A stretch of 64,000 nucleotides of DNA from an uncultured Acidobacteriota bacterium (lineage in GTDB: Bacteria > Acidobacteriota > Thermoanaerobaculia > Gp7-AA8), in the NCBI GenBank assembly GCA_963741955.1, contig CAVUKB010000005.1, positions 448,001-512,000 on the forward strand, written 5' to 3'. The position numbers and the translations under genes are program-made. Numbering within the stretch: position 1 is the stretch's first letter; each line of letters begins with the position of its first letter. Under the pieces are notes generated by a model, which saw only the letters and a list, made by a program, of their open reading frames with translations, was not told where the DNA came from and searched no databases. This document shows positions 10,184 to 45,397 of this stretch, one piece after another.

Positions 10184-10223
10184 GCGCCGACGAATCGAAG
10201 ATCACGGAAGACCACCGAAGACG

Positions 10224-31500: not shown

Positions 31501-34500
31501 GGCGCCATCGACGCGACGAACCGCAACGTCAGCGTCACTGCCACCGACAACGCCGGCAACACCACCACAACCGCAGACACCACGAACGCCACGGTCGACA
31601 ACGGCGCACCCGGCGTCACCGACGCGAACATCAGCATCAGCGGCGCCTCCGGCACCGGCGGCACGTTCATCATCGGCGACACCGTCACCGCAACCTGGGA
31701 CGACACCGCCGGCGGCGACAACAACAGCGACACGATCGCCGGCGTCACCGTCGACTTCTCCCAGTTCGGCGGAGGCTCCGCCATCGCCGCTTCGAACAGC
31801 GCCGGCACCTGGACCGCCACGTACTCCCTCGTCTCCGGTGCGATCGACGCGGCGAACCGCAACGTCAGCGTCACCGCCACCGACAACGCCGGCAACACCA
31901 CCACCGCCTCGGACACGTCGAACGCGAGCGTCGACAACGTCGCGCCGACCGTCACCTCCGGCAACATCACCGTCACCGGCGGCTCTGGCCCGGGCGGCGA
32001 GTTCCGCATCGGCGACACCATGACCGTCACCTGGAACAACACCGCCGGCGGCGACAACAACAGCGACACCATCAGCGGCGTCACCTTCGACTTCTCCGCG
32101 TTCGGCGGAGGTGCTGCCGTCGCGGCAACCAACAGCGCCGGCAGCTGGAGCGCGACCTACACCAGCTCGTCCTGCTCCATCAGCGGGCCGTCCCTGAACG
32201 TCTCCGCGACCGCCACCGACGACGCCGGCAACTCCACCACAACCGCGAAGGCCGTCTCCTTCAATAAACTCTCGGGAACGCTCGCCCTCTCCAGCGCGAC
32301 CTACTCGGTCAGCGAGAGCGGCGGCTCGGTGACCGTCACCGTCGACCGGACCGGCGGGAGCGATTGCACCGTCACCGTCGACTACGCGACCTCCGACGGA
32401 ACCGCAAAGAGCACCGCCGCCGGCACAGGCACGCCCGACTACACCGCGACATCAGGAACGCTGACCTTCAATGCCGGCGTCACTTCACAGACCTTCGCCG
32501 TCCCCGTCACCTCCGACGCCGTCTACGAAGGCGACGAGACGTTCACCGTCACCCTCACGAATCCGGGCGGCGGAGCGACGCTCGGCGGCACGGCGAGCGC
32601 CACCGTCACCATCGTCGATGACGATCCGGCACCAGCGTTCTCCATCGGCGACGTCTCGCAGTCGGAGGGAGACAGCGGCACCACGGCATTCACGTTCACC
32701 GTCACGAAGAGCGGCGCGACCGCAGTCAATGCCACCGTCGACGCGGCGAGCTCGGATGGAACGGCGACGACCGCCGATGCCGACTACGTCGCGCTCGGCA
32801 CGACCACTGTCACCTTCGCGCCAACCGACCTCACGAAGACAGTGACCGTCAACGTGAACGGCGACACGACCTACGAGTCGGACGAGACGTTCGACGTGAA
32901 TCTCTCCAATCCCACCGACGCCACCATCTCCGACAACCTCGGCGTCGGGACCATCGTCAACGACGACACCGCGCCCTCGTTCGCCATCGACGACGTCTCC
33001 CTCTCCGAAGGCAACAGCGGCACCACCGCATTCACCTTCACCGTCACGAAGAGCGGCACCACCGCCCTCCCCGCCACCGTAGACGTCGCATCCTCCGACG
33101 GGACCGCAACCGTCGCGGACAACGACTACGCCGCCCTCGCAACGACCACCCTCACGTTCGCGCCCGCCGATACGACGAAGACGGTCACCGTGAACGTCAC
33201 CGGCGACCAGCGCGTCGAGCTCGACGAGACCTTCAACGTGAACCTCTCCAATCCCGTCGACTCCACCATCTCGGACAGCCTCGGCGTCGGCACGATTCTC
33301 AATGACGACGCCGCCGGCGTCACCGTCACCCCCACCTCCGGTCTCGTGACGACCGAGGCCGGAGGCACCGCGACGTTCACCATCGTGCTGAATACGCAGC
33401 CTTCCGCTGACGTCACGTTCGGCCTCTCCTCGTCCGACACCACGGAGGGGACCGTGAATCCCGCCAGCGTCACGTTCACCGCCGTGAACTGGATCACGCC
33501 CCAGACGGTCACCATCACCGGCGTCGACGACACCATCATCGACGGCGACATCGCGTACACCATCACCACCGCGCCGGATACCGTCACCGCCGATCCCGAC
33601 TACCGCAATCTCGACCCGGCCGACGTCTCGGTCACCAACACCGACAACGACGCCGCCGGCGTCACCTTCTCGAAGAGCACCGTCAACACATCCGAGAGCG
33701 GAACGACCGACACCTACACCGTCGTACTCAACGCACAGCCAGCTGCAGACGTGACCCTCACCGTCACCTCGGGTGACACCACCGAGGGACTCCTCTCCGA
33801 CTCCGACGAGACGCTCCAGCCGGCAGTGACGCTGACATTCACTGCGGCGGACTGGAACGTCGCTCAGACGGTCACCGTGACCGGTCAGGACGACTCTCTG
33901 ACCGACGGCAATCAGACCTACGCCGTCTCCACCTCCAGCGCGAGCAGCGATTCGAACTGGAACGGCCTCACGATCGCGGACGTCACCGCGACGAACAGCG
34001 ACGACGACTCGCCGGGAGTGACCGTCGCTCCGATCACCGGTCTCATCACCACGGAGGCCGGCGGCACGGCGACGTTCACCGTCGTTCTCAATGCGCAACC
34101 TGCGGCGGACGTGTCGATCGACCTCTCCTCGAGCGACACCACCGAGGGACTCGTTTCGACCAACGGCGTGACGCAGCAGTCGAGCGTGACGCTCACGTTC
34201 ACTCCGGCCGCATGGAACGTCCCGCAGACCATCACCGTCCACGGTCAGGACGACTTCGTCACCGACGGCGATCAGGGCTACGCGGTCACCACGTCCGCCT
34301 CGACCTCGACGGACCCGCTCTGGAACGGACTCACCGTCGACGACGTCTCGGTGACGAACCAGGACGACGAGGTCTCCCAGGTCACCGTCACTCCGACCAG
34401 CGGCCTGGTCACGACCGAAGCCGGGGGCACCGCGACGTTCACCATCGTTCTGACCAGTCAGCCGATGCCCGGAACGGACGTGTCGATCCTTCTCTCTTCG

Positions 34501-36009
34501 AGCGACACCACCGAAGGAACCGTCTCTCCGTCGAGCGTGGTGTTCGATCCGACGAACTGGAACGTCCCGCAGACCGTGACGGCGGCCGGCGTCGACGACT
34601 CGGTCGACGACGGTGACCAGCCGTGGACTGTGGTGACCTCGGATGCCATCTCCGCCGACCCGACCTACAGTGGGCTAGGAGTGGCCGATCCGGGCGTGAC
34701 CAACATCGACGACGACTCGCGCGGCGTCACGGTCACCCCGACCAGCGGACTGACCACGACGGAAGCCGGCGGCACGGCCACATTCACCATCGTCCTCGAC
34801 TCGCAGCCACTGGCGGACGTCACGATCGGCGTCGGCTCGAGCGACGGCTCGGAGGGAGCGGTTTCTCCGGCGAACGTGGTCTTCACCGCGGCGAACTGGA
34901 ACGTTCCTCAGACGGTCACCGCGATCGGCGTGGACGATCTGATCGACGACGGCGACCAGGCGTGGACGATCGTCACCGCCAATGCCGTCTCGACCGATCC
35001 CGCTTACAACGGGCTTCCGGTCGCCGACGTGAGCGCGGTGAATCTCGACAACGACACCAGTGGCGTGACTGTCATGCCCAGCAGTGGACTCTCGACCACC
35101 GAGGCGGGAGGGAGTGGGAGCTTCACGATCGTGCTCGACACTCAGCCTGCGTCGAACGTCACCATCACCCTGAGCTCCAGCGACACCACGGAGGGGACGG
35201 TCTCACCGATCGCGGTGACGTTCACCAGCTCCAACTGGAACGTGCCGCAGAGCGTCACGGTGACGGGAGTGGACGACAACCTCGCGGACGGCGATCAGCC
35301 GTACACGATCGTCACTTCGACGACGGCGTCGGCGGATCCGACGTACGCGGGGCTTGCGGTACCGGACGTATCGGTCACCAACGTCGACGACGAGACGTCG
35401 GCGTCCGACAGCGACGGCGACGGAGTGCTGGACGTGACGGAGAATGCCGGACCAAACGGCGGCGACGCGAACGACGACGGCACCTCGGACTATCTCCAGC
35501 CGCAGGTGGCGAGCCTTCCGCCGGCGAGAGGTGGCGGATATCTGACCGTGATCTCGAGCTGCGAGCTGCGGGACGTCCGGACGCTGACGAAGGACTCGAT
35601 CGCGCCGACGCCTCTCACGTTCCCGTACGGGCTGGTCCAGTTCCGGATGCCGTGCGCGACCGCGGACATGCACATCCTCTATCACGCCGGGAGCGCGTGG
35701 CCGGACGCGACGCAGTACTGGAAACATGGCCCCACCACGCCGGGCGACACGTCGACCACGAAGTGGTACCAGCTCCCGGCCGTGACGTTCGACACGACCA
35801 CCGTGGCCGGATCCACAGTGGCGCGCGCGAACTTCACACTGACGGACGGCACGCTCGGCGACGACACCGGCGTCGACGGGGAGATCATCGACCAGGGCGG
35901 TCCGATCGCGCCCGCCTCGTCCGCCACGGCCATTCCGACCGCGTCGGGATGGGCGCTCCTTCTGATGGCGATGCTCCTCGCCGTGATCGCCGTCGTCCGT
36001 CTCCGCTAA
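28573..36009 (+). CDS. Giant repetitive surface adhesin: five ~112-aa repeats, Calx-beta domains, six TEAGG repeats, choice-of-anchor-U-like domain, IPTL-CTERM
   Basis: Thr/Ser/Asp-rich tandem repeats. VDYATSDGTA..DY..SGTLTF Calx-beta motif. C-terminal AIPTASGWALLLMAMLLAVIAVVRLR. True start is probably downstream (about 28726). Confidence 0.88.
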   Translation: MCSVPPYRNLRPSADSHSRVQCPSSAGIRPKMQDFEGGSAEHGGDCLWGLAVHESSARLRSILLLLATISFLFPLTAAAVITVTPIGSNRATGVSFSITVPASIPAGKTIVVAISKVAYNTVPLVSDSAGNTYSLRLTQGGAYGDTHWVFVASNANALSAGQSITVDPQTNHETSACAIALGGVLNPQDVSASSSAHTATPSSGTATTTQAREVLVGSIYWWDLSRPAATAGAGYTIQTSTPRTANSNLLLETRLVGSIGSYAADATLATASDTIASMLAFKEAPQDADGTLIPSGVVIEPVALDTTNDTVGEAVSLFDFTLFDQGTSDGLPMNVSQIVLHVSGTSSNTERGDITWRLNGPDTSNVTGTYNAASQTISFSGLSISVANGASETYTVNGYFNTNTGITDGHTVILSVDGDTDVTVDGTKTLMGTTSAVTNSTGTPLSVIASTLSFTTQPAGSVSGSALTTQPVVAASDAFGNVDLGFSNNISLTEASAGSLSGTTTLAATSGVATFTNVAYTATADLESFTLTAAASGLTSATSNSVTSDVVATKLIFTTQPAPTSIQSGISTAFSTVPVVRAVDANNTVDTGYSTDIVLSVTDPNDGVVDGTVNSMTGTGDADGSGSTVTLTPSSGSATFSNLTLQYTNGGATDSIALRATSGGLTAANSSTITSSSLPIVTDPNISISGGSGIGGAYIIGDTVTATWNNTAGGDNNGGITGVTVDFSQFGGGAAVSASNSAGTWTATYTITAGAIDATNRNVSVSATNASGTTTTPDSTNATVDNIAPTVTDGNISISGASGTGGTFIIGDTVTATWNNTAGGDNNSDTITSVTVDFSQFGGGSGVAASNSSGTWTATYTVVSGAIDATNRNVAVSATDNAGNSRTTADSTNASVDNVAPTVTDANISISGASGTGGAFKIGDTVTATWDDTAGGDNNSDTIVGVTIDFSQFGGGAAVAASNSSGTWTATYTITAGAIDATNRNVSVTATDNAGNTTTTADTTNATVDNGAPGVTDANISISGASGTGGTFIIGDTVTATWDDTAGGDNNSDTIAGVTVDFSQFGGGSAIAASNSAGTWTATYSLVSGAIDAANRNVSVTATDNAGNTTTASDTSNASVDNVAPTVTSGNITVTGGSGPGGEFRIGDTMTVTWNNTAGGDNNSDTISGVTFDFSAFGGGAAVAATNSAGSWSATYTSSSCSISGPSLNVSATATDDAGNSTTTAKAVSFNKLSGTLALSSATYSVSESGGSVTVTVDRTGGSDCTVTVDYATSDGTAKSTAAGTGTPDYTATSGTLTFNAGVTSQTFAVPVTSDAVYEGDETFTVTLTNPGGGATLGGTASATVTIVDDDPAPAFSIGDVSQSEGDSGTTAFTFTVTKSGATAVNATVDAASSDGTATTADADYVALGTTTVTFAPTDLTKTVTVNVNGDTTYESDETFDVNLSNPTDATISDNLGVGTIVNDDTAPSFAIDDVSLSEGNSGTTAFTFTVTKSGTTALPATVDVASSDGTATVADNDYAALATTTLTFAPADTTKTVTVNVTGDQRVELDETFNVNLSNPVDSTISDSLGVGTILNDDAAGVTVTPTSGLVTTEAGGTATFTIVLNTQPSADVTFGLSSSDTTEGTVNPASVTFTAVNWITPQTVTITGVDDTIIDGDIAYTITTAPDTVTADPDYRNLDPADVSVTNTDNDAAGVTFSKSTVNTSESGTTDTYTVVLNAQPAADVTLTVTSGDTTEGLLSDSDETLQPAVTLTFTAADWNVAQTVTVTGQDDSLTDGNQTYAVSTSSASSDSNWNGLTIADVTATNSDDDSPGVTVAPITGLITTEAGGTATFTVVLNAQPAADVSIDLSSSDTTEGLVSTNGVTQQSSVTLTFTPAAWNVPQTITVHGQDDFVTDGDQGYAVTTSASTSTDPLWNGLTVDDVSVTNQDDEVSQVTVTPTSGLVTTEAGGTATFTIVLTSQPMPGTDVSILLSSSDTTEGTVSPSSVVFDPTNWNVPQTVTAAGVDDSVDDGDQPWTVVTSDAISADPTYSGLGVADPGVTNIDDDSRGVTVTPTSGLTTTEAGGTATFTIVLDSQPLADVTIGVGSSDGSEGAVSPANVVFTAANWNVPQTVTAIGVDDLIDDGDQAWTIVTANAVSTDPAYNGLPVADVSAVNLDNDTSGVTVMPSSGLSTTEAGGSGSFTIVLDTQPASNVTITLSSSDTTEGTVSPIAVTFTSSNWNVPQSVTVTGVDDNLADGDQPYTIVTSTTASADPTYAGLAVPDVSVTNVDDETSASDSDGDGVLDVTENAGPNGGDANDDGTSDYLQPQVASLPPARGGGYLTVISSCELRDVRTLTKDSIAPTPLTFPYGLVQFRMPCATADMHILYHAGSAWPDATQYWKHGPTTPGDTSTTKWYQLPAVTFDTTTVAGSTVARANFTLTDGTLGDDTGVDGEIIDQGGPIAPASSATAIPTASGWALLLMAMLLAVIAVVRLR

Positions 36010-36394: not shown

Positions 36395-36598
36395 TCATTC
36401 CCCCGATAGATCCCACACCCGTTCGTGCGGGCGCAAGGCTCGCCTCCGGGCGATCAGAGGGAGGGCGATCCTCTGCAGTTCCACCACGATTCGGACCTTT
36501 TCCGGAAGTGGAAGTGCGCGACGCTCTGCGCGGAGCTCTTCCTTCCCGCGGCGGAGGCGCTCCATCAGTTGCTCCGGAGTCTCCCGACTCGACATCAT
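36395..36598 (-). CDS. Small basic protein translationally coupled to the nucleotidyltransferase
   Basis: 67-aa ORF (MMSSRETPEQL..LPLPEKVRIVVELQ). ATGA overlap with the upstream gene. Confidence 0.6.
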   Translation of the reverse strand: MMSSRETPEQLMERLRRGKEELRAERRALPLPEKVRIVVELQRIALPLIARRRALRPHERVWDLSGE

Positions 36599-37083
36599 TC
36601 CTCCGGAAGTCGCAGGCCGAATCGCTCGGCCAGTGACACCAGACGTCGCCGATCGACGACGCCGTCCTCCAGCATCGATCGAACCCGGGCAATGCGTTTC
36701 GAAGATCGCGCCGACGACTCCAGTGACAGCGCAGCAAGGTATTCCGGGAGCATGACGCGGACCGGAACACCGTCGTAGTCCAGCGTCGCCGCCGTCTGAA
36801 TCGCCTCCTCCACGAGATCCGAATGCGCCGGGATGACCTGCACGGGTGTTCCGGCGATCATCAGATGTTCGTGCTCTGCCGCATATCCATGGCCTTTCGC
36901 CCAGTCGTAGACGCCGGAGAGGGAAATGCGCGATCCGCTCGCCGGCAGCGTCACGAAGACGTCGAGGTCGAAGGTCGTCACCGGATCGGCCCGGAACGAA
37001 AGCGCCATCGCACCACCGATGGCGTATTCGGTCACGGTCCCATCGCCCCGCATCGCGTTGATCGCCTCGAGAGTTCTCTTCAC
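36595..37083 (-). CDS. Pol-beta-superfamily nucleotidyltransferase (TA-like)
   Basis: YAIGGAMA..TFDLDVFV (GG..DxD) motif. Confidence 0.8.
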   Translation of the reverse strand: MKRTLEAINAMRGDGTVTEYAIGGAMALSFRADPVTTFDLDVFVTLPASGSRISLSGVYDWAKGHGYAAEHEHLMIAGTPVQVIPAHSDLVEEAIQTAATLDYDGVPVRVMLPEYLAALSLESSARSSKRIARVRSMLEDGVVDRRRLVSLAERFGLRLPEE

Positions 37084-37420
37084 TTGTCGACCTTCCGGGG
37101 AGATCCGTCGTGGACCGAAATCCCTCGCCGGATATTATGCCGAATCCTCTCGCGCAGGATACGGAGGTTGCCCGCGTCGTCTCGGAGCCTCGGCCACGCG
37201 GACAAACTCGCCCGCGCCTCAACCCGCGGCGGAAAGTACAAGACCCCTGTCCGCCCTTCCCACGGTCCCCATCCATGCCACGACGACCGTGACCGCCGAG
37301 ACGGGCTGCGGCTCGAAATCGTCGTGGTCTCCGCACGGGCAGGTCGCGCCGCTCATCCCGGACATTCGTGCTCCAAAACTTCGGTACTCCGTCCCCACAA
37401 AGCACCCACTCCCTCGCGCC

Positions 37421-37500
37421 GCCCTCCTATTCCCGTCCGGGGTCACGTCTTCAGCCGCGGTCCGAGTTCGGTGACAGCGTCAGGGTGAAGGGCAACTCGA
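37421..37500 (+). repeat. Degenerate family-B REP copy
   Basis: CCGTCCGGGGTCACGTCTTCAGCCG..CAGGGTGAAGGGCAAC. Confidence 0.7.
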
Positions 37501-37852
37501 AAGTCGGATTCCACGCCGTAGCCACCCGCCTCGTGCCACGGAGCACCTCACGCCATTGCCACACGTCTCTCCGAGTGCACGCGCCATCTCACCGACAATG
37601 CCGCTCCTCTCGTCTCCCTCGATGGAGGTAAAATGCTCCCAAATGCGACTCCCCCTCGGCGCACTCGCGTACACCGAAGGGGACGGAGTCCGTCCAGCGG
37701 CGGGCGCAGAAGCGGGATCGCCGCTCGAAACCCAGGACGCCTCCGCCGAAACCGACAGTCGATTCCCGCCGACCGTCCCACCGTCGCGCAGCCGCCCTCA
37801 CGCCAGGCCTGGCTCCGCCGAATCCGGAACCGCACCCATTTTCGTGAATCAT

Positions 37853-38004
37853 TTTATCGGACCGAAAATGTCCGGACGAAACCGGACATTCCGAAGAACG
37901 AAACGAAGAACCTGTTTCCTTTCAACAGCTTCGACCGAACTATACGAACGGACCGCGGAATGTTATCGGACAAAAACTGTCCGGTTTCACGATTTTCGTT
38001 AGGT
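37853..38004 (+). other. Atypical att-like site at the 5' end of the cassette array
   Basis: Ends in GTTAGGT (GTTRRRY, 37998-38004). IR GAAACCGGACA/TGTCCGGTTTC and direct repeats TTATCGGAC-N6-TGTCCGG (37853, 37963). Confidence 0.45.
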
Positions 38005-38027
38005 CCACTACAATCCCTTAAACAGTA

Positions 38028-38131
38028 GTTGAACGAAGCCGCTGCAGGCGACGAAGACGCGGCACACCATCTGTCGTAAATTGTTTGGCCAGCTCGGCCG
38101 CGTCTTCGCGCCTGAGCTCTATACGTTAGGC
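38028..38131 (+). other. attC site (a)
   Basis: GTTGAAC ... GCT[G]CAGGCG[A]CGAAGACGCGGC / GCCGCGTCTTCGCGCCTGAGC ... GTTAGGC. Perfect stem with two extrahelical bases. Confidence 0.8.
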
Positions 38132-38164
38132 GGCGCTAGAATGCTTACCATGAACGGAGGTTAT

Positions 38165-38521
38165 GTGCGACAGATTGTCACGGTTCTTTTCGCCATCTTC
38201 CTGCTTGCCGGTTGCGCCTCGGGTCCTGGTGGCGAGCTTCTGCCGAATGGGACGATCACTCCTTGCGGCGGACACCATACAGACCCGCAAGCCTGCGGCA
38301 ACGCGACATTCAACGCGCGCGTTATCGGGAAAGTCCAGGTCGGCCAGTCGAAGCAAGACGTTCGGGCGATCATGCAGCACGACCCCGAGCGGCGCGAAAT
38401 ATCCGCAAACGTGGAAACTTGGTCGTACATCACGGATTACCCGTCCGAGCTCGTAACGGAAATTGTGTTCACGGACGGCAAAGTTACGGGCCTGAAGCAG
38501 GCGCCGTGGCACACCGACTAG
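38165..38521 (+). CDS. Cassette-borne small lipoprotein (SmpA/BamE-like domain)
   Basis: Lipobox LAGC. GQSKQDVRAIM..P..ETWSY..IVFTDGKV pattern. Alternative ATG starts at 38141/38150. Confidence 0.75.
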   Translation: MRQIVTVLFAIFLLAGCASGPGGELLPNGTITPCGGHHTDPQACGNATFNARVIGKVQVGQSKQDVRAIMQHDPERREISANVETWSYITDYPSELVTEIVFTDGKVTGLKQAPWHTD

Positions 38522-38525
38522 CGCC

Positions 38526-38648
38526 GCCTAACTCATAGGACTCTTTACCGCATCCGAACTGGCACGGCTCACGTTCGCGCGGTGAGTGTCAGGACGCGGA
38601 GGTCGCGTTCGCTCGCCTAACAGGATGCGGAAAAGAGTTCAGTTGGAC
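38526..38648 (+). other. Atypical attC-like site joining the lipoprotein cassette to the recombinase/transposase module
   Basis: R'' GCCTAAC (38526), R' GTTGGAC (38642). 16-bp IR ACTCTTTACCGCATCC/GGATGCGGAAAAGAGT. Second GCCTAAC at 38615. No canonical L boxes. Confidence 0.65.
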
Positions 38649-38892
38649 GAAGCCGCGACGCCATGGGTGGAGTATCGAAGCGGGAGGGCGGCGGAGGGAG
38701 TGGCCGGCGGACGAATCGATGCCGAAGCGCGCGATTCGAGCGTGAATAATCGCGATGATGGGCATGATTCGGCCCGTGTTGCGAGGCGGGTCGGTCGGCG
38801 AGACGTCGCAAAACCGACGGACGCGCAGAGCTGCCGCAGAGCAACCGGATTCGGCCGTCGCAGGATGTCGAGGCGAATGGTCATCGCGAGTC

Positions 38893-40026
38893 TCATGAGC
38901 TATCGAACCACGTCCTGGGGATGTACGGGGCGACGCGCGCGATGATCGACATGACGCCGGTGCCGCATTCGGGACAGAGACGTTGCGGCGCGGGCCGAGG
39001 ATCGCGCGGGCGCAACTTCGAAGCGATCATGTTGCGGGCGAGCTCGATGTTGTGGTGCCGGAGGCGATTGGCGAGGAAGCCAAAGTAGCGGATCCTTACG
39101 AATCGCGACGGGACGATGTGCATTGCGAAGCGGCGGAGGAACTCTGTCGCCGTGAGAGTGGCAGTCCTGGCGGCGTAATGGTTGGCGTAGTCGTGCCACG
39201 TGAACGTGACGCTCTTACCGTCGAAGGCCAGAATGCGGCGGTTGCTGATGGCAATACGGTGCGTATAGGACGATAGATAGGCGAGCACCTGATCCGGTCC
39301 ACCGAACGGCTTCTTGACATAGGCGTGCCAGTCGGTGCGACACGAGAGGCACAGAAGCTGTTCGAGCGCGGGGGCATCGGGAATCGACGGCGGCAGGGTC
39401 ATCTCTCCACTCGCGAGTGCTTCGCGGATGGCGGTCGTGACGAGCGAGCGGAAACGACGCGAGATGACCTTGACGGCGAGTAGGAACGAGAGCTTGCGCA
39501 CGCGCACCCATCGCGCGCCGTCGAGCGAGAAGCCGCCGCCGGTGACGACGCAATGGACATGCGGATGAAACGGCAGCTGCTGGCCCCAGGTGTGGAGCAT
39601 GGCGGTGACGCCGAGAGTCGCTCGGAGCTTGGTCTGGCCGACGTCGATGAGCGCGCGGCCTGCTGCGCGGAGCAGGATCGCATAGACGACCGCCGGCGCG
39701 TGAATCGCGAGCCCATTGAGCTCCTCGGGGATCGTGAAGGCGGCGTGGAAGTACGGCGTTGGGAGTACCTCGCTGCGGCGCGCCTCGACCCACGCGGCTC
39801 GCGCCGCAGCGCCACAGAGAGGACAGTGGCGGTTGCGGCACGAGTTCCATTGCGTCTGCTCGTGACCGCAGGAGGCGCAGCGATTGCGATGGCCGCCGAG
39901 AGCGGGCGTGCGGCAGTCCGCAATTGCGCGGAACGTGCGGAGCTGGTGCGGAGACAGACTCTGCGAAGCGAGCAGCTCTCCGGCTTTAGCGCGCACGATC
40001 GCACCGAGAGTCGGCGCGGAGTCCAT
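38893..40026 (-). CDS. IS91-family (HUH, Y2) rolling-circle transposase
   Basis: Zn finger CRT..LGG..C..C..NSCRNRHCPLC, HPHVH HUH motif, YLSSY dyad, RIRYFGFL. Confidence 0.93.
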   Translation of the reverse strand: MDSAPTLGAIVRAKAGELLASQSLSPHQLRTFRAIADCRTPALGGHRNRCASCGHEQTQWNSCRNRHCPLCGAAARAAWVEARRSEVLPTPYFHAAFTIPEELNGLAIHAPAVVYAILLRAAGRALIDVGQTKLRATLGVTAMLHTWGQQLPFHPHVHCVVTGGGFSLDGARWVRVRKLSFLLAVKVISRRFRSLVTTAIREALASGEMTLPPSIPDAPALEQLLCLSCRTDWHAYVKKPFGGPDQVLAYLSSYTHRIAISNRRILAFDGKSVTFTWHDYANHYAARTATLTATEFLRRFAMHIVPSRFVRIRYFGFLANRLRHHNIELARNMIASKLRPRDPRPAPQRLCPECGTGVMSIIARVAPYIPRTWFDSS

Positions 40027-40030
40027 CGAC

Positions 40031-40879
40031 CTAACGCTTCTTTGGGGGCGTGATGTGATCGAGTGGGCTGCCGATCTTGCCGGGCGTCACGTGCGTATAG
40101 GTCTGGGTGGTGCGGAGGTGCGCGTGCCCCATCGCGACCTGAATCATCGGCATCGGCTCGCCCTGCTCCATCAGATGCGTGGCGAAGGAGTGGCGCAGGG
40201 TGCGGTGACAGACGTGCTTGGTCAGGCCGGCGCGGCGCACGGCGATGCGTAAGGCGCGCTGGAACGTGGAGTGGTTGATCGGCCGGGAAGGATCCTTCCG
40301 GATGGGGAACAGCAGATCGCGAGGACGTGTCTCCCGCCACCACTCGCGCAGCAGCTCGAGGGCGATCGGCGAGAGCGGCGCGTAACGATCCTTGAGGCCT
40401 TTGCCCTGCCGCACGCGGATGAGCATGCGCGAAGAATCGATGTCGCCGACCGAGAGCCGGCACACTTCACCAAGGCGCAGGCCGGCCGAGTACGTCACGG
40501 TGATGAGTACGCGATCGCGCAGAGTCTCGGCGGCATCGATGAGCCGCAGGACCTCCTCGGGGGCCAGGACGACGGGAAGGCGACGCTCGCGGTGCATGAA
40601 GGGGATGCGCTCGACCATCTCCTCGCGCCCCAGGACCTTGCAGTAGAAGAGGCGGAGTGCGGACATCACCTGATTGAAGAAGCTGAACGAAGCGTGACGC
40701 TCATCGCGAAGGTGGAGCTGATAGGTGAGGATCTCGTTAGGACCGAGCGTGTCGGGAGAAGCATGAAAGAAGGCCGCGAACTTCGCGACCGCGCCGAGGT
40801 AGGTCTTCTGTGTCCGTTCCGAGTAGTTGCGGACGCGCATGAAGTCGTGCATCCGTTGACGAAGGGGTGAAGTGGCCAT
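40031..40879 (-). CDS. Tyrosine recombinase, IntI-related N-terminus, lacking the integron I2 insertion
   Basis: RNYSERTQKTY N-domain; YSAGLRLGE, GKGLKDR, TLRHSFATH, MGH, TTQTY. Confidence 0.92.
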   Translation of the reverse strand: MATSPLRQRMHDFMRVRNYSERTQKTYLGAVAKFAAFFHASPDTLGPNEILTYQLHLRDERHASFSFFNQVMSALRLFYCKVLGREEMVERIPFMHRERRLPVVLAPEEVLRLIDAAETLRDRVLITVTYSAGLRLGEVCRLSVGDIDSSRMLIRVRQGKGLKDRYAPLSPIALELLREWWRETRPRDLLFPIRKDPSRPINHSTFQRALRIAVRRAGLTKHVCHRTLRHSFATHLMEQGEPMPMIQVAMGHAHLRTTQTYTHVTPGKIGSPLDHITPPKKR

Positions 40880-40985
40880 GACCGATCTCCTTTCATTGAG
40901 ATTCGGTCAGTGGATCACCCCGGACCCTTCGTCGCTACCCGCGCACCCGCCGGGAGGCCGGGCGGCTATGCCGCGCAGCGGCTTC

Positions 40986-41091
40986 GTTCAACAAGCGCTT
41001 GCAGTGGTCCCGGCCCGCTTCGTTCCTGCGTGGCAGCTGGTTTACCGTTGCGCGTCGCGGGCCGGGCGGCTGAGGCGCTGGTCCGTTGGGC
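40986..41091 (+). other. attC site (b)
   Basis: GTTCAAC-AAGCGCTT[G]CAGTGG[T]CCCGGCCCGC ... GCGGGCCGGGCGGCTGAGGCG-CTGGTCC-GTTGGGC. Confidence 0.82.
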
Positions 41092-41140
41092 TGACCGAAG
41101 GACGGCGCGAAATCAGAAACGTGTGAGAACATCATCTCCG

Positions 41141-42181
41141 ATGTACCCGCCACGTCCGCCCGACATTCGCGTTCGGCAGAACGCAGTCGAAGCTCCTCAT
41201 GTCGTGATTCTCGGCGCGGGAGCAAGCATCGCGACCTGCGTGAAAGGCGACCGGGGCGGGCGTCGGCTGCCGGCCATGGGCTCTCTCGTCGATGTTGTGG
41301 GACTTGGACCACTTCTCGATGCCGCCGAGATCCCTCTCGAGCAAAGATCGGACCTTGAAGAGTTGTACGGTTCCATGCTTGCCGACGCGCGTTTGCTTGA
41401 CCTGCGCCATGCGATTGAGATCAAGATCAAAGAGTACTTCGACGACATCGAGCTCCCGCGCGCGGTTACGCTGTATGACGAGCTTCTTCTTACGCTCCGC
41501 CGGAAGGATCTTGTCGCCTCGTTCAACTGGGACCCCCTTTTGATTCAGGCATTTCACCGCAATCGGCACCTTCGTGAGCTCCCCGAAATTGCATTTCTGC
41601 ACGGCAATGTTGGCGTTGGCGTGTGTCTCAAAGATCGCCGCAATGGTTTCTTTGGTGGTCGATGCGGCGCGTGCGGCGAGCTCTACGAGCAGTCGCCGCT
41701 CCTGTATCCAGTTGCCGACAAGCGGTATGACGAGAATCCTTTCATATCAAGCCAGTGGGCACGGCTTGAATCAAAGCTGAGCGACGCATTCATCGTGACC
41801 ATCTTCGGATACTCGGCGCCGGTATCCGATGTGCGAGCCCGTGAGCTCATGCATCTGGCTTGGAACGCGAATGGAGCGCGAACTCTCGCCGAGATCGAGA
41901 TTGTTGACATTCGACCGAGACGGGCACTGGTAAAGAGCTGGGAGCAATTCATAACCGGTGGCCACTATTCGATTCGAAAGCGCGTATCCGGTACCTTGGC
42001 GTTCCGTTTTCCGCGACGGAGTTGCGATGCATGGGGCTGGGCGGTGCTGCAGAACGATCCGTGGCGAGAGCGTCCACTGCCACGCTACGGCCGCCTCGAT
42101 CGCCTGCAACGATGGTGTGAACCGCTTGTAGTCGAAGAAGCTGAACACTATGACCGCGGAATGCCGCTCACGCAGTGGTGA
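41141..42181 (+). CDS. Cassette-borne SIR2-like domain protein
   Basis: VILGAGAS, SFNWDPLL, LHG, IFGYS motifs and a CxxC. ATG is downstream of attC b. Confidence 0.72.
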   Translation: MYPPRPPDIRVRQNAVEAPHVVILGAGASIATCVKGDRGGRRLPAMGSLVDVVGLGPLLDAAEIPLEQRSDLEELYGSMLADARLLDLRHAIEIKIKEYFDDIELPRAVTLYDELLLTLRRKDLVASFNWDPLLIQAFHRNRHLRELPEIAFLHGNVGVGVCLKDRRNGFFGGRCGACGELYEQSPLLYPVADKRYDENPFISSQWARLESKLSDAFIVTIFGYSAPVSDVRARELMHLAWNANGARTLAEIEIVDIRPRRALVKSWEQFITGGHYSIRKRVSGTLAFRFPRRSCDAWGWAVLQNDPWRERPLPRYGRLDRLQRWCEPLVVEEAEHYDRGMPLTQW

Positions 42182-42190
42182 GAGCCGGCA

Positions 42191-42293
42191 GCCCAACTTT
42201 CGCACTGCACCGGCCGTGGGCCCGCACCGCGGCAAGCGAAAGAGTACAATCCCCGTGAGCGGGTCCACGCCGGTGAGCGCGGAAACGTTGGGC
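42191..42293 (+). other. attC site (c)
   Basis: GCCCAAC..CT[G]CACCGG[C]CGTGGGCCCGC / GCGGGTCCACGCCGGTGAG..GTTGGGC. Confidence 0.85.
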
Positions 42294-42311
42294 GGCAGGA
42301 GCCACATTCGG

Positions 42312-42644
42312 ATGCAAAAAGCCAAGACGGTGACGGCGGCGGTATTTGGCGTGGGCTTGCTCGCCCTCGCCGCGCTCACGTTCGCGGAAGCTCGTGCCGC
42401 GCACCTCAGTCCGTCGGAATATCACTTTGGAAGCGAAGCTATGCTCTTCCACGGCGGCTGGATCTATCAGTCGCAGGCCTCGTACGTTAGGACGACCTTG
42501 CTGGAGGGAAGTTTGTTCCTAGCCGCGGGGGGCGCCTCGGTAGCGTTTGTTTTTCTAAAACGGTGGCCGTACGCAGCGATCGCACTGATCGCGGCGCTCG
42601 TCGGAATCGGTGTCCATCTCAGTGCAATCGTGCCGGCCGCGTGA
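42312..42644 (+). CDS. Cassette-borne small membrane protein (3 TM)
   Basis: AGGAG RBS, hydrophobic segments, stop directly before R''. Confidence 0.7.
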   Translation: MQKAKTVTAAVFGVGLLALAALTFAEARAAHLSPSEYHFGSEAMLFHGGWIYQSQASYVRTTLLEGSLFLAAGGASVAFVFLKRWPYAAIALIAALVGIGVHLSAIVPAA

Positions 42645-42648
42645 TGCC

Positions 42649-42752
42649 GCCCAACTCGCAGTCGCACCGGACGCCGACCGCTGCGTTACTCCCCTCCCGG
42701 TTGTGTCATCATCGCGCGGCGGACAGCGCCGGTGAGCGCCGAGCCGTTGGGC
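42649..42752 (+). other. attC site (d)
   Basis: GCCCAAC..[G]CACCGG[A]CGCCGACCGC / GCGGACAGCGCCGGTG..GTTGGGC. Confidence 0.8.
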
Positions 42753-42775
42753 GTCATGACCCCCACAATCACCCA

Positions 42776-43150
42776 ATCACCACGCGGCCCCTGACCGATG
42801 ATGAACTGCGCCTCGCCCGCTGGATGCTCGAGAACGGCGGTCCCGACGCACGCGCCTACCTCAGTCAACTCGAGGCATCAGAGGCGACAACGTGGCGTTG
42901 CCCCTGCGTCTGCGCGAGCTTCAACTTCAAGGTGCAGGGGAGGCAGGAAGCTCCTCCCGGTGTGCACATCCTCCGGGACTTCGTGTTCGGTTCTGAAGCA
43001 AACCTCTCGGGCGTATTCATTTTCGAAAGCAATCGCACCCTCAGTGGAGTTGAAGTCTATGGGTTGGCCGGGGATGCGCCAGCTGCCCTTCCGGAACCAG
43101 GGTCGCTTCGTCCTTGGGGCTCGCACCCGGAGGTGTCGATGAAGATGTAA
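42776..43150 (+). pseudogene. Cassette ORF of unknown function (CPCxCAS motif), start damaged or uncertain, 3' end replaced by an IS end
   Basis: Coherent frame RPLTDDE..RCPCVCASFNF..GVEVY. The ATG at 42756 is out of frame. The last codons come from the IS21-like end. Confidence 0.5.
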
Positions 43151-43188
43151 AAGTGACCCACTGCGAAGTAGTAAGAGTTGACCACCTG
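43134..43188 (+). mobile_element. Isolated IS21-family-like terminal repeat
   Basis: Begins TGT and carries tandem subrepeats GTAAAAGTGACCCAC / GTAAGAGTTGACCAC. No istA/istB follows. Confidence 0.55.
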
Positions 43189-43288
43189 AGGGGAAGGGGC
43201 TCCGCCGGGGAGAGAGGCACGGGCGACCGTGCTGGGTGATGATTCCTCCGTCCGGAGGCGAGCGGAGCGAGCCGGAGGGCGCGAGGGG

Positions 43289-44091
43289 GCAGAGTCAGGC
43301 CTTCGCCCGTCGGCTCTGTTTGCTAAGTATTTGACACGACCTCACTTCGAGGTACGTTTCGCTGCGCACAATCCTGCGACTGCCACAGCCGGATCGCCGA
43401 TCTGGACCCACCGAGGAAGGCTTGCGGAGACGCCGACGATTCTATGAGGAGTAGAATCCACGGCGTCTCGTGAAGCCCAGGGTTTCTCGAGCCCATGCCA
43501 CGATCCACTTCGCCTCGGGTTCCCGGCGCGATCTTCCACGCCCCTGCGCACAAGGAAGTTCCGAAATGCCAATTACTTCTGAATGGTAACCAACAGGCAG
43601 AGCCCTGACTCTACTCACCCCGAGACAACATCGAAGGATCGCGTCATTTCTACGGAAAAACCTTCCGCCTTCGCCGCGGGTCATCGGAGAGTACTCGACC
43701 GATACCGATTCGGGGTTTGTTCAGGCCGGCGAACAACGTCTCGAGGCGAACGGAGCGATGAACGTGAAATCGGATTTTCGATCGTTCTATCGGCTGGTAG
43801 GCTTTCTCGAACTCGCTCTTGAAATTCCTGATCCGTACGAGAGGGCAGGGTCAGGCCTTCGCCCGTCGCTCTTCACGATGAGTGTCGGAGCGTTCGCCCG
43901 GGTGGAGCACGCTGTGAGAGCGCAGGGTCAGGCCTTCGCCCGTCGGCTCTGTTAGCTAAGTATTTGACACGACCTCACTTCGACGCACGGTTCGCTGCGC
44001 AGAATCCTGCGACTGCCACAGCCGGACCGCCGATCTGGACCCACCGAGGAAGGCTTGCGGAGACGCCGACGATTCTATGAGGGGTGGAATC
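43289..44091 (+). repeat. 170-bp direct repeat pair (43289-43458, 43922-44091) plus a 24-bp partial copy at 43845
   Basis: GCAG.GTCAGGCCTTCGCCCGTCGGCTCTGTT.GCTAAGTATTTGACACGACCTCAC...GATTCTATGAGG present twice. Confidence 0.88.
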
Positions 44092-44098
44092 TCGTTTC

Positions 44099-44178
44099 GC
44101 TGCTTTCGCGGCCTGCGGCCCCGAGACAGCCTCCTGGCTGGCGCTCGGCCGCAGCCGCTGAGCAGCAAACCGTCAGGG
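44099..44178 (+). other. Degenerate attC-like remnant
   Basis: GCTGCT..GCGG[C]CTGCGGCC / GGCCGCAGCCGCTGAGCAGC followed by GTCAGGG at the R' position. No R''. Confidence 0.35.
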
Positions 44179-45297: not shown

Positions 45298-45397
45298 CAT
45301 GTCGTCCGCTTCGCGGACTCCATGACTTTCCTGCCGTCTGCCCGTTCCCGGGGCTCACGCCCCGGGCTACAGATATATCGTCCGCTTCGCGGACTCC
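45298..45397 (-). repeat. REP/MITE-like element, family C
   Basis: TCGTCCGCTTCGCGGACT twice, flanking CCCGGGGCTCACGCCCCGGG. Confidence 0.6.

What the first reader, a model, noticed from the sequence alone, without database searches (positions are those of the whole stretch)
37853..43150. Integron-like cassette array in which the recombinase + rolling-circle HUH transposase module is itself a cassette
Seen: four attC sites (38028, 40986, 42191, 42649; 103-106 bp) with R''/R' boxes and two extrahelical bases. Each intervening segment starts and ends with complementary sequence, as integrated circular cassettes do: GTTAGGCGGCGCTAG/CTAGCGCCGCCTAAC (15/15), GTTGGGCTG/CAGCCCAAC (9/9) and GTTGGGCGGCA/TGCCGCCCAAC (11/11). 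The same rule holds for 38642-40992 (GTTGGACGAAGCCGC/GCGGCTTCGTTCAAC, 14/15), which encodes, antisense to the other cassettes, a tyrosine recombinase and an IS91-type Y2 transposase. Established: IntI recombines attC as folded ssDNA and has an I2 insertion, which this recombinase lacks (GKGLKDR runs straight to LLFP). IS91-family enzymes generate ssDNA and cleave at GTTC/CTTG-type tetramers; GTTC and GTCC sit in these ends. Integrase+IS91 gene pairs are known, but I do not know of them being described as cassette-system components. Inference: either a non-IntI, self-mobilising cassette-capture system in which the HUH enzyme supplies the ssDNA substrate, or an element that mimics a cassette to parasitise attC arrays.
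Basis: partly seen in the sequence, partly recalled or inferred. Interest (0 to 1): 0.92.

Follow-up and report, generated by a model that had tools for sequence, protein, structure and literature searches.

The report
Cassette-mimicking IS91 element splitting an attC
A jumping gene of the IS91 family, carrying an integron-like recombinase and its own attC-like hairpin, sits backwards inside a recombination site of a small integron that has lost its integrase, and its relatives hit the same spot in many other soil bacteria.

Summary
The four attC sites, the complementary segment ends and the insert-less recombinase are real. An attC model built only from other arrays scores the four sites at 50.9-62.7 bits on the + strand.

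- A canonical IntI with a 27-site array lies 364 kb away on the same contig.
- The window array is a second integron whose intI core is gone. Its attI-like site remains and ends at G|TT, 38028|38029.
- The recombinase plus Y2 module is a 2460-bp IS91-family element, 38532-40991 on the minus strand.
- It splits the R'' box GCCTAA|C of cassette 1's attC, antisense to the array.

Relatives repeat this pattern.
- 47 of 50 right-end junctions continue with TT, with consensus TTAGGC.
- 9 of 9 attC-abutting left ends of this lineage are antisense, at R''.
- Relatives without the hairpin are multicopy in four genomes with no IntI found.
- A recombinase-less relative is an ordinary sense-oriented cassette at attI in an IntI-bearing genome.

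"A non-IntI cassette-capture system" is not. Which enzyme does the joining remains inferred.

The parts
37625..37703 (+). Remnant of the region 5' of an integron integrase gene. The intI core that should follow is missing.
   Evidence: 80% identity over 80 nt to G000:C5:853469-853545, just upstream of the canonical IntI match. No TIGR02249 match here other than the element's recombinase.
37860..38028 (+). attI-like region of an intI-deleted integron platform. The recombination point is G|TT at 38028|38029.
   Evidence: 37963-38030 is 82% identical to C5:852198-852265, which lies between the canonical intI and its first cassette. Similarity stops exactly at G|TT in both. Calling it attI is inferred from position.
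38028..38045 (+). Solo 18-nt copy of the element's left end, in sense orientation directly at the attI G|TT. Read as the remnant of an earlier copy inserted at attI.
   Evidence: 18/18 identical to the reverse complement of 40975-40992. It occupies the place of the R'' box and spacer of the attC that follows (alignment marks non-pairing positions there).
38028..38131 (+). attC site 0. It is a hybrid: the body and R' are host-type attC, while the first 15-18 nt come from the element's left end.
   Evidence: R1 52.0 bits, E 1.5e-10. 77% identity over 73 nt to the canonical-array attC at C5:841860-841932.
38126..38531 (+). Cassette 1 body, up to the interrupted R'' box GCCTAA. The ORF 38141-38521 encodes a 126-aa protein with a lipoprotein-like signal (LAGC).
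   Evidence: No Pfam, NCBIfam or PADLOC hit. The lipobox is read by eye.
38532..40991 (-). IS91-family insertion sequence of 2460 bp, with recombinase then Y2 transposase. It is flanked by the triplet AAC at 38530-38532 and 40990-40992, so each junction can be placed anywhere within that triplet.
   Evidence: Boundaries come from comparison with copies in G070, G040, G431, G420, G428 and G401 and with 49 metagenome loci. Conservation stops at ...CCTATGAG|TT on the right and begins at G|TTGRAC on the left. It is single-copy in G000.
38532..38648 (-). The element's own attC-like hairpin (attC_IS). It runs from R'' GTCCAAC through a conserved stem and a variable centre of about 70 nt back to the conserved stem, and ends ...CCTATGAG at the junction.
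   Evidence: It travels with the element in relatives. In 30 distinct copies the arms are invariant and the centre variable. DNA fold z = -2.95/-2.98. Host-attC model R1 does not detect it at E<=10.
38642..38656 (+). The reverse complement of GCGGCTTC-GTCCAAC, the extended R'' box of attC_IS. It pairs with the left end GTTGAAC-GAAGCCGC once the element is circular.
   Evidence: 14/15 complementary here, and 13-15/15 in all 13 complete elements, with covariation at position 5. The circle-junction fold gives a continuous stem at -43.0 kcal/mol on the window's + strand.
38893..40026 (-). Y2 (HUH) rolling-circle transposase, 377 aa.
   Evidence: NF033538 IS91 family transposase, 367.8 bits against a cut-off of 125. 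Pfam Y2_Tnp 2.3e-53 and Zn_Tnp_IS91 5.5e-30.
40031..40879 (-). IntI-like tyrosine recombinase, 282 aa, without the IntI-specific insertion. Its stop lies 4 nt before the Y2 start codon.
   Evidence: Pfam Phage_integrase 4.1e-41 and SAM_4 3.2e-19. TIGR02249 181 bits, below the 265 cut-off, in two stretches. 33% identity to G000 IntI. R135, K160, R229, H252 and Y261 are invariant in all 24 aligned sequences.
40975..40991 (-). Left end of the element, TTGAAC GAAGCCGC TGC, leading into a GCCGC/GCGGC hairpin that continues leftward on the + strand.
   Evidence: The same left end is conserved in elements of G393, G250, G279, G258, G070, G431 and others.
40992..41091 (+). The rest of cassette 1's attC: the last base of R'', spacer, stems and R' GTTGGGC. 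Its first six bases are at 38526-38531.
   Evidence: R1 56.8 bits for 40986-41091. The six bases before the element plus the sequence after it give the same 19-nt start as two intact attCs of G420, at L091:4178 and L091:15454.
41086..42293 (+). Cassette 2, with ORF 41141 (or 41123)-42181 of 346-352 aa and no family assignment, and attC 42191-42293.
   Evidence: R1 62.7 bits. ORF. No Pfam, NCBIfam or PADLOC hit.
42288..42752 (+). Cassette 3, with ORF 42312-42644 of 110 aa (hydrophobic) and attC 42649-42752.
   Evidence: R1 50.9 bits. ORF. The hydrophobic character is read by eye.

Best explanation
SHOWN. The region is a small second integron of this acidobacterial genome. Its integrase gene has been deleted, but its attI-like site and three cassettes with host-type attC sites remain. 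An IS91-family insertion sequence (38532-40991, minus strand) has inserted into it. The element encodes an IntI-like tyrosine recombinase lacking the IntI insertion, followed by a Y2/HUH transposase. It is built like a gene cassette. It starts with TTGAAC, carries its genes in sense, and ends with its own attC-like hairpin. The extended R'' box of that hairpin is complementary to the element's first 15 nt, so a circular copy would hold one complete attC-like site. The element sits exactly in the AAC of the R'' box of cassette 1's attC, antisense to the array. Relatives occupy the same position and orientation in other arrays.

INFERRED. By analogy with IS91, the Y2 enzyme peels off and circularises one strand. 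That strand folds at the junction into the attC-like hairpin. The element's own recombinase, not the host IntI, then exchanges strands at the GTT/AAC core, with a site and strand choice opposite to IntI's (R'' of the top strand rather than R' of the bottom strand). An earlier copy that entered in sense at attI, the canonical IntI reaction, has left only its first 18 nt at 38028-38045.
For: Identity. IS91 transposase model 367.8 bits against a 125 cut-off; the recombinase hits the IntI model in two pieces. Five catalytic-type residues are invariant in 24 of 24 aligned sequences.

Boundaries. Conservation among copies in six other genomes and 49 metagenome loci stops at ...CCTATGAG|TT and starts at G|TTGRAC.

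Target. 47 of 50 right-end junctions continue with TT, and 32 of 48 fit TTRRRY: TTAGGC 13, TTGGGC 12, TTAGCC 7.

Empty site. The bases either side of the element rebuild the start of an intact attC as seen twice in G420.

Orientation. 15 left-end junctions of this lineage were seen. 9 abut an R1-detected attC (window, L090, L096, L108, L112, L116, L125, L141, L142), and in all 9 the attC is on the strand opposite the element with ...GCGGCTTC-GTYCAAC as its hybrid R''. A tenth case is L060, a relative without the hairpin.

Cassette-like circle. Left end and R'' extension are complementary at 13-15 of 15 positions in 13 of 13 complete elements. Position 5 reads A/T three times, G/C four times, A/C six times and G/T never. 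A/C is a T.G wobble on the antisense strand only.

Own enzymes suffice. Relatives without the hairpin are multicopy in G393 (6), G279 (5), G250 (6) and G258 (3). No IntI match at E<=1e-40 was found in any of those four.

Recombinase rather than Y2 sets site choice. The recombinase-less relative in G432 (Y2 53% identical) has an R1-detectable attC (22-36 bits). Of its five copies, one lies at an attI and one at an attI-like site, one lies tandem behind the first, one lies at an attC R' box, and one is cut off by a contig end. All are sense-oriented, in a genome with a canonical IntI of 464.8 bits.

ssDNA circle. For IS91, only one single-stranded circle is inserted and double-stranded circles are not (PMC13181058, section 11 read).

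Platform. attI and intI-5' homology with breaks at G|TT. Canonical IntI 466 bits at C5:852424-853368, with 27 attC hits beside it.
Against: No experiment or read evidence shows that this copy moves. Only contigs were available, and they show neither circles nor empty sites.

For IS91 itself the transposase alone inserts the circle at a tetranucleotide that resembles the terIS end (PMC13181058). Here both junctions share YAAC on one strand, so Y2 alone could explain them.

The G432 contrast is a single lineage. Its Y2 is only 53% identical, so differing Y2 specificity is not excluded.

Four left-end junctions with at least 74 nt of flank show no R1 attC at E<=0.05 (L089, L103, L119, L121). Two others had too little flank (L134, L145).

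The host-attC model does not recognise attC_IS. Its stems are nearly invariant, so only 1 of 12 pairs shows a compensatory change.

The 3' arm of the hairpin was the search pattern for the metagenome loci, so its invariance there is by construction.

Stand-alone symmetric hairpins of the same type exist without the element (L099, L104/L120/L124, L118). The hairpin may therefore be a captured attC rather than an element-specific site.

Three genomes holding this lineage gave no IntI match (G428, G401, G040). That argues against IntI dependence but says nothing for the recombinase.
Confidence: 0.6

Rival explanations
1. Classical IS91 mechanism only. The Y2 transposase nicks after a YAAC tetranucleotide at both ends, makes the single-stranded circle, and inserts it after a YAAC in single-stranded target DNA. 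attC R boxes (RYYYAAC) are hit because they carry that tetranucleotide in DNA that is often a hairpin. The recombinase is an accessory, for example resolving tandem copies or regulating as Orf121 does in IS91.
For: IS91 TnpA alone inserts the single-stranded circle. Targets are CTTG/GTTC/GTCC, and the terIS end of IS801 and IS1294 ends in a like tetranucleotide (PMC13181058). Here the left end reads ...CGTTCAAC and targets read ...YAAC on the same strand. Relatives without the hairpin, in genomes with no IntI found, show loose four-base-like targets: GTTA, GTTG, GTCA, GTTT. The recombinase-less G432 element has the same G|TT junctions. The recombinase gene sits where orf121 sits, directly upstream of tnpA.
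Against: The target consensus extends over about 9 nt (TTAGGC.GC), more than a tetranucleotide. YAAC occurs on both strands of every attC, yet 9 of 9 junctions of this lineage use the top-strand R'', while the G432 lineage uses attI and R' in sense. The recombinase keeps its catalytic residues in 24 of 24 sequences, so it does cut DNA somewhere. The 15-nt pairing between left end and R'' extension looks like an integrase substrate.
Confidence: 0.25
2. The element is a passive cassette moved by the genome's canonical IntI (C5:852424-853368) acting in trans on attC_IS. Its two genes are cargo.
For: A canonical IntI is present in G000. The solo left end lies at the attI G|TT in sense, where IntI would place a cassette. 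G432's recombinase-less element behaves exactly like an IntI-handled cassette.
Against: IntI puts cassettes in sense at attI or at R'. This copy and 8 of 8 related attC junctions are antisense at R''. The lineage also occurs in three genomes with no IntI match (G428, G401, G040, 95-100% complete). Relatives without the hairpin multiply without IntI. Host-attC model R1 does not see attC_IS.
Confidence: 0.08
3. Recombinase plus Y2 is the engine of a non-IntI cassette-capture system that assembled this array.
For: The recombinase is IntI-like. The array has no intact intI next to it.
Against: The array's attCs belong to the same type as the 27 sites beside the canonical IntI. An attI and an intI-5' remnant homologous to that integron flank the array. 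The element interrupts an attC and is single-copy here. In other genomes it is an ordinary multicopy IS, often outside any array.
Confidence: 0.03

Closest known systems
IS91 family rolling-circle insertion sequences (IS91, IS801, IS1294, IS1294b)
   Same: A Y2/HUH transposase with an N-terminal zinc-binding domain. Subterminal palindromes at both ends. No target duplication in multicopy relatives. A short conserved target beside the end downstream of the transposase gene. GTTC or GTCC inside the ends. A small gene directly upstream of tnpA.
   Different: The upstream gene is a 282-aa IntI-like tyrosine recombinase, not orf121. The right end carries a roughly 117-nt attC-like hairpin. The target is the integron core site (consensus TTAGGC.GC), not CTTG/GTTC (PMC13181058 passages).
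IS91-family members with an integrase-type gene, and the 'Integron-like' tyrosine recombinase subgroup
   Same: Smyshlyaev et al. (bioRxiv 10.1101/542381, passages read) place recombinases of IS91 and IS3 elements next to IntI and note that they lack the IntI insertion, as found here. [quoted passage not shown]
   Different: My 8 full-text searches returned no paper on these points: the element's own attC-like end, the left-end/R'' pairing, the R''-specific antisense insertion, or a recombinase-less sense cassette form. That ISfinder lists IS91 members with an upstream integrase gene is my recollection, not a call.
Integron gene cassettes and IntI
   Same: A GTT/AAC crossover triplet. An imperfect palindrome with R''/R' boxes and a variable centre at the 3' end of the unit. 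A circle that would hold one complete site. A recombinase whose nearest relative in this genome is IntI (33% identity).
   Different: The unit encodes its own enzymes. The recombinase lacks the IntI insertion and scores below the family cut-off. Insertion is at R'' and inverted. The hairpin is not recognised by a model of the host's attCs.
Other attC-targeting elements: the IS1111-attC group and group IIC-attC introns
   Same: They specialise on attC sites. The introns are reported to insert opposite to the cassettes (PMC9229058 passage).
   Different: The enzymes are unrelated: IS110-type DDE transposase and reverse transcriptase. Pfam finds neither here. Those elements do not mimic a cassette.

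Membership tests
IS91 family insertion sequence | Y2/HUH transposase with a zinc-binding N-terminus | tested here: met
   NF033538 367.8 bits against a cut-off of 125. PF04986 2.3e-53 and PF14319 5.5e-30. The HUH-like HPHVH and the YLSSY pair are seen by eye in the translation.
IS91 family insertion sequence | Discrete ends, no target-site duplication, short conserved target at the end downstream of tnpA | tested here: met
   Multicopy relatives have sharp boundaries and no duplication beyond the shared GTT core. 47 of 50 right-end flanks start with TT.
IS91 family insertion sequence | Single-stranded circular intermediate made by rolling-circle replication | not testable with these tools
   Only assembled contigs of three runs were available, with no circle or empty-site joints.
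Integron (IntI + attI + attC array) for the window array | An adjacent integron integrase with the IntI-specific insertion | tested here: not met
   The only TIGR02249 match in the window is the element's recombinase, below cut-off and in two pieces. The intI core is missing between 37703 and about 37860. A canonical IntI lies at C5:852424-853368 (466 bits).
Integron (IntI + attI + attC array) for the window array | An attI site followed by cassettes that end in attC sites of one polarity | tested here: met
   attI homology ends at G|TT. Four R1 hits of 50.9-62.7 bits lie on the + strand. The cassette ORFs are on +.
Integron gene cassette (for the recombinase + Y2 unit) | One attC at the 3' end whose R'' pairs with the R' formed at the circle junction, with genes in sense | tested here: met
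   On the minus strand, left end and R'' extension pair at 14/15 here and 13-15/15 in 13 of 13 elements. Both ORFs are sense.
Integron gene cassette (for the recombinase + Y2 unit) | Insertion at G|TT of attI or of an attC R' box, in the same orientation as the array | tested here: not met
   It sits in the R'' box and is inverted, as do 8 of 8 other attC-abutting copies of the lineage.
Integron gene cassette (for the recombinase + Y2 unit) | An attC recognisable by an attC covariance model | tested here: not met
   R1 gives no hit on 38526-38648 on either strand at E<=10. IntegronFinder's own model could not be run.
Integron integrase IntI (for the recombinase) | Family score above cut-off, and the extra domain between the conserved patches | tested here: not met
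   TIGR02249 181.3 bits against 265. Model positions 173-236 are unmatched. Gaps appear in the alignment to G000 IntI.
Integron integrase IntI (for the recombinase) | Catalytic residues of tyrosine recombinases | tested here: met
   R135, K160, R229, H252 and Y261 are invariant in 24 of 24 aligned sequences, including IntI. Assigning them catalytic roles rests on general knowledge.
IS1111-attC group / group IIC-attC intron | IS110-type DDE transposase, or a reverse transcriptase with a ribozyme | tested here: not met
   Pfam finds only Y2_Tnp, Zn_Tnp_IS91 and Phage_integrase domains. Rfam finds no intron in the window.

The most novel reading that the evidence does not exclude
IS91-type elements carrying an IntI-like recombinase would be a self-mobilising sister system of integrons. 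The HUH enzyme would make a single-stranded circle whose junction folds into an attC-like hairpin. The insert-less IntI relative would then integrate it at GTTRRRY sites. On this reading, integron cassettes, the recombinase-less Y2 cassettes found at attI, and these elements are stages of one evolutionary series. IntI plus attI would then be a domesticated, or conversely an escaped, form of such an element.
Probability: 0.2. Interest if true: 0.85.

Novelty: new variant of a known kind. Interest (0 to 1): 0.63.

Why it matters
Integron integrases have no known origin, and their closest relatives are recombinases of IS91-type elements whose role is unknown.

This locus and its relatives show that such elements use the integron's own crossover triplet. 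They can carry an attC-like hairpin that closes only in the circular form, and they home to attC sites with a strict, reversed polarity. That turns two questions into simple two-gene assays in E. coli:
- what the recombinase in IS91-type elements does;
- how strand choice at attC is set without the IntI insertion.

It also matters for annotation.
- Cassette arrays without an integrase may be integrons whose intI was deleted.
- 'attC sites' called next to such elements can be hybrids of an element end and a split attC.

Tried and rejected
Rfam: no attC or related family. The only hit is Acido-Lenti-1 outside the region.

ORFs 36395-37405(-), 36823-37488(+) and 37589-37852(-) were tested as a possible adjacent intI. 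They gave no family hit in Pfam, and the first two were also negative in NCBIfam. The missing integrase was explained instead by DNA homology.

The genome-contig scan with the recombinase returned only 10 distant loci (36% identity or less) and was not used further.

Sequencing runs. Three runs of one study were found, all stored as contigs, and one is probably the source of this genome. They showed no joint indicating a circle or an empty site, so this says nothing about activity.

I tested whether a replication-strand bias explains the antisense rule. By GC skew the array's top strand is the leading-strand template. Preference for single-stranded lagging-strand template does not explain this copy. 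This is one case only and stays inconclusive.

An empty-site orthologue was sought by searching cassette 1 in 121 genomes of the family. Only 70-73% matches over about 115 nt turned up, in 3 genomes, and none is usable.

Covariation in attC_IS: the stems are almost invariant, so it neither supports nor contradicts the fold.

PADLOC on the four cassette proteins gave no hits.

The IS91 hit in PMC11023631 was IS911 and is irrelevant to the element.

Tools and sources not available:
- IntegronFinder could not be run, and R1 is a home-made substitute.
- Supplementary tables of PMC13181058 and PMC9229058 were not consulted. They may hold target lists and the ISShvi3 figure that bear on the comparison.

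Full report
**Observation**

I built an attC covariance model, R1, from 19 sites outside the window: 8 beside this genome's canonical integrase, 5 from G056 and 6 from G420. It has 25 base pairs, 14 of them with compensatory changes.

| Site | Bits |
|---|---|
| 42191-42293 | 62.7 |
| 40986-41091 | 56.8 |
| 38028-38131 | 52.0 |
| 42649-42752 | 50.9 |

The minus strand scores 27.7 bits at best. The next + strand hit is a weak 19.2 bits at 44089-44178. The complementary starts and ends of the segments are as stated. The two minus-strand genes are an IS91-family Y2 transposase (NF033538, 367.8 bits against a cut-off of 125) and a tyrosine recombinase. The recombinase matches the integron-integrase model only in two pieces, skipping model positions 173-236. 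It aligns to this genome's IntI at 33% identity, with gaps where IntI has its extra segment.

**The array is an integron that lost its integrase**

The genome (G000; the window is contig C5:448001-512000) has a canonical IntI at C5:852424-853368 (466 bits against a cut-off of 265). R1 finds 27 attC sites on one strand just beyond it, and they are of the same type as the window's sites.

The DNA left of the window array is homologous to both sides of that integrase gene.
- 37625-37703 matches the region 5' of it (80%).
- 37963-38030 matches the stretch between intI and its first cassette (82%).
- About 1 kb in between, the intI core, is absent from the window.

In both loci the similarity ends exactly at G|TT (window 38028|38029), which is where an attI site recombines. 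So the array is a second integron platform with intI deleted. It is not a cassette system without an integrase. Calling this stretch attI is an inference from position.

**The module is a discrete insertion sequence with different borders**

The recombinase has thousands of relatives at 58% identity or more. At E<=1e-60 it is found in 17 of 401 sampled genomes of the phylum. In G393, G279, G250 and G258 it is multicopy, always followed by a Y2 gene, within sharply bounded units of 2.52-2.57 kb.

It often lies at contig ends, as repeats do.
- Read in the direction of the genes, conservation runs to ...CCTATGAG and stops.
- The next bases fit TTRRRY in 9 of 9 copies.
- On the other side conservation begins at TTGRAC after a G.

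In the window the unit is therefore 38532-40991, 2460 bp. It is flanked by AAC at 38530-38532 and 40990-40992. It is single-copy in G000.

**Target and polarity**

The element splits the R'' box of cassette 1's attC after GCCTAA (38526-38531). The rest of that attC follows at 40992. Put together, the two parts give the same 19-nt start as two intact attCs of G420.

A metagenome scan with a 21-nt right-end pattern gave 49 loci with 50 junctions.
- 47 of 50 continue with TT.
- 32 of 48 fit TTRRRY.
- The commonest flanks are TTAGGC (13), TTGGGC (12) and TTAGCC (7).
- G and C are also preferred two bases further on.

Three of these loci share one flank and are probably one insertion. Roughly half of the 50 are complete right ends. 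The others are truncated by contig ends, decayed remnants, two mini-elements, or stand-alone hairpins.

I saw 15 left-end junctions of this lineage.
- 9 abut an attC detected by R1. In all 9 the attC lies on the strand opposite the element, with the element's last bases supplying a hybrid R'' box.
- 4 with at least 74 nt of flank have no R1 hit.
- 2 have no usable flank.

Arrays near other copies are also antisense in eleven loci. They are in the same sense in two loci that hold other subtypes, and one locus is ambiguous.

**A cassette in reverse**

On the minus strand the element has the anatomy of a cassette. It begins with TTGAAC, carries both genes in sense, and ends with an imperfect palindrome with conserved arms and a variable centre. 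The 15 nt in front of that palindrome's first arm are complementary to the element's first 15 nt. The match is 14/15 here and 13-15/15 in all 13 complete elements.

One position co-varies: A/T three times, G/C four times, A/C six times, G/T never. The A/C combination is a T.G wobble only on the strand antisense to the genes. That hints that this strand is the folded one. These elements are related, so the counts are not independent.

But the attC belonging to the module is 38532-38648, not 40986-41091. R1, the host-attC model, does not recognise that hairpin.

**Relatives that bear on the mechanism**

(a) The elements without the hairpin are multicopy in four genomes where no IntI match was found at E<=1e-40. 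So the element's own genes suffice for it to multiply.

(b) G432 holds at least five copies of a 1.58-kb relative with Y2 only (53% identical) and no recombinase.
- It starts with TTGGAC GAAGCTGC.
- It ends in an attC that R1 detects (22-36 bits).
- It always lies in sense. Two tandem copies sit directly behind a canonical IntI (464.8 bits) at its attI, one sits at another attI-like site, and one sits at an attC R' box.
- It behaves as an ordinary IntI-handled cassette.

(c) In the window the first 18 nt after the attI G|TT (38028-38045) are an exact copy of the element's left end in sense, fused to an attC that lacks its R'' box and spacer. I read this as the stump of an earlier copy that had entered at attI. 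How the rest was lost is unknown.

**Mechanism**

What is shown is the anatomy, the target and the polarity.

What is established for the family is this. IS91 TnpA makes single-stranded circles, and only one strand's circle is inserted while double-stranded circles are not. Targets are tetranucleotides resembling the terIS end (PMC13181058; passages and section 11 read).

My inference is that Y2 supplies the single-stranded circle and the IntI-like recombinase joins it at the GTT/AAC core. The reasons are:
- the target consensus spans about 9 nt and equals the integron core site;
- the circle junction forms a long R-box stem, as IntI substrates do;
- the recombinase keeps its catalytic residues in 24 of 24 sequences;
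- site and orientation change with the kind of tyrosine recombinase available (own recombinase: R'', antisense; host IntI only: attI or R', sense) rather than staying fixed with Y2.

The main rival is that Y2 alone does everything at a YAAC tetranucleotide and the recombinase is accessory. Nothing here excludes it, and I give it 0.25. Mobilisation by the host IntI fits the polarity badly (0.08). A cassette-capture role for the module fits nothing (0.03).

**Comparison with what is in print**

Two things are in print. Recombinases of IS91 and IS3 elements are the nearest relatives of IntI and lack its insertion (bioRxiv 10.1101/542381, passages read). [quoted passage not shown]

Eight full-text searches returned no description of the element-borne attC-like end, its pairing with the left end, the R''-specific antisense insertion, or the recombinase-less cassette form. 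The library holds open-access papers only, and supplements were closed. I therefore rate this a new variant of a known kind.

**Limits**

- All polarity calls outside the window rest on R1 scores.
- R1 and the strand convention derive from arrays of one bacterial family.
- Metagenome copies are related to one another.
- No read-level evidence of movement exists.

Noticed in passing
window 45347-45395 (+): Rfam Acido-Lenti-1 small RNA, 37.6 bits against a gathering score of 37. It is the only Rfam family in the window and fits an acidobacterial host.
   Followed up: no
window 44089-44178 (+): A weak attC-like match to R1 (19.2 bits, E 0.018), about 1.3 kb beyond the last strong attC. It may be a decayed terminal attC, which would make 42753-44178 a fourth cassette.
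   Followed up: no
window 43128-43500: In the probable source run several short contigs with higher depth (up to about 58 against about 9.5) and sequence variants pile up here. That suggests a repeat or a strain-variable stretch right after the array.
   Followed up: no
window array versus G000:C5:828-853 kb: By GC skew the intact integron has its attC bottom strands on the leading-strand template. That is the orientation described as conserved in PMC11023631 (abstract and passages read). The integrase-less window array has the opposite orientation. That paper reports that inverted arrays select for loss of the integrase.
   Followed up: partly
L153 (G432:C13) 9478-13776: A canonical intI, then attI, then two tandem copies of a 1.58-kb Y2-only cassette joined head to tail at G|TT. 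The same cassette occurs at three further places in that genome.
   Followed up: yes
L099, L104/L120/L124, L118; L117, L132, L116: Stand-alone, fully symmetric hairpins of the attC_IS type occur without any element. There are also mini-elements of about 130-330 nt made of a left end plus a right end. These look like non-autonomous derivatives or the source of the captured hairpin.
   Followed up: partly
G070: This relative has five matches over the integron-integrase cut-off (one of them with an internal TGA), as well as a copy of the element.
   Followed up: no
L090 (G431:C12) 6084-6185 and 6180 onward: A second IS91-type element of another subtype (left end TTGGACTAAACCGC) sits in sense at the R' end of an attC. 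It lies 600 bp from an antisense copy of the attC_IS lineage, so both polarities occur in one array.
   Followed up: partly
window 28573-36009 (+): A 2478-aa open reading frame ends about 1.6 kb before the integron remnant. It was not examined.
   Followed up: no
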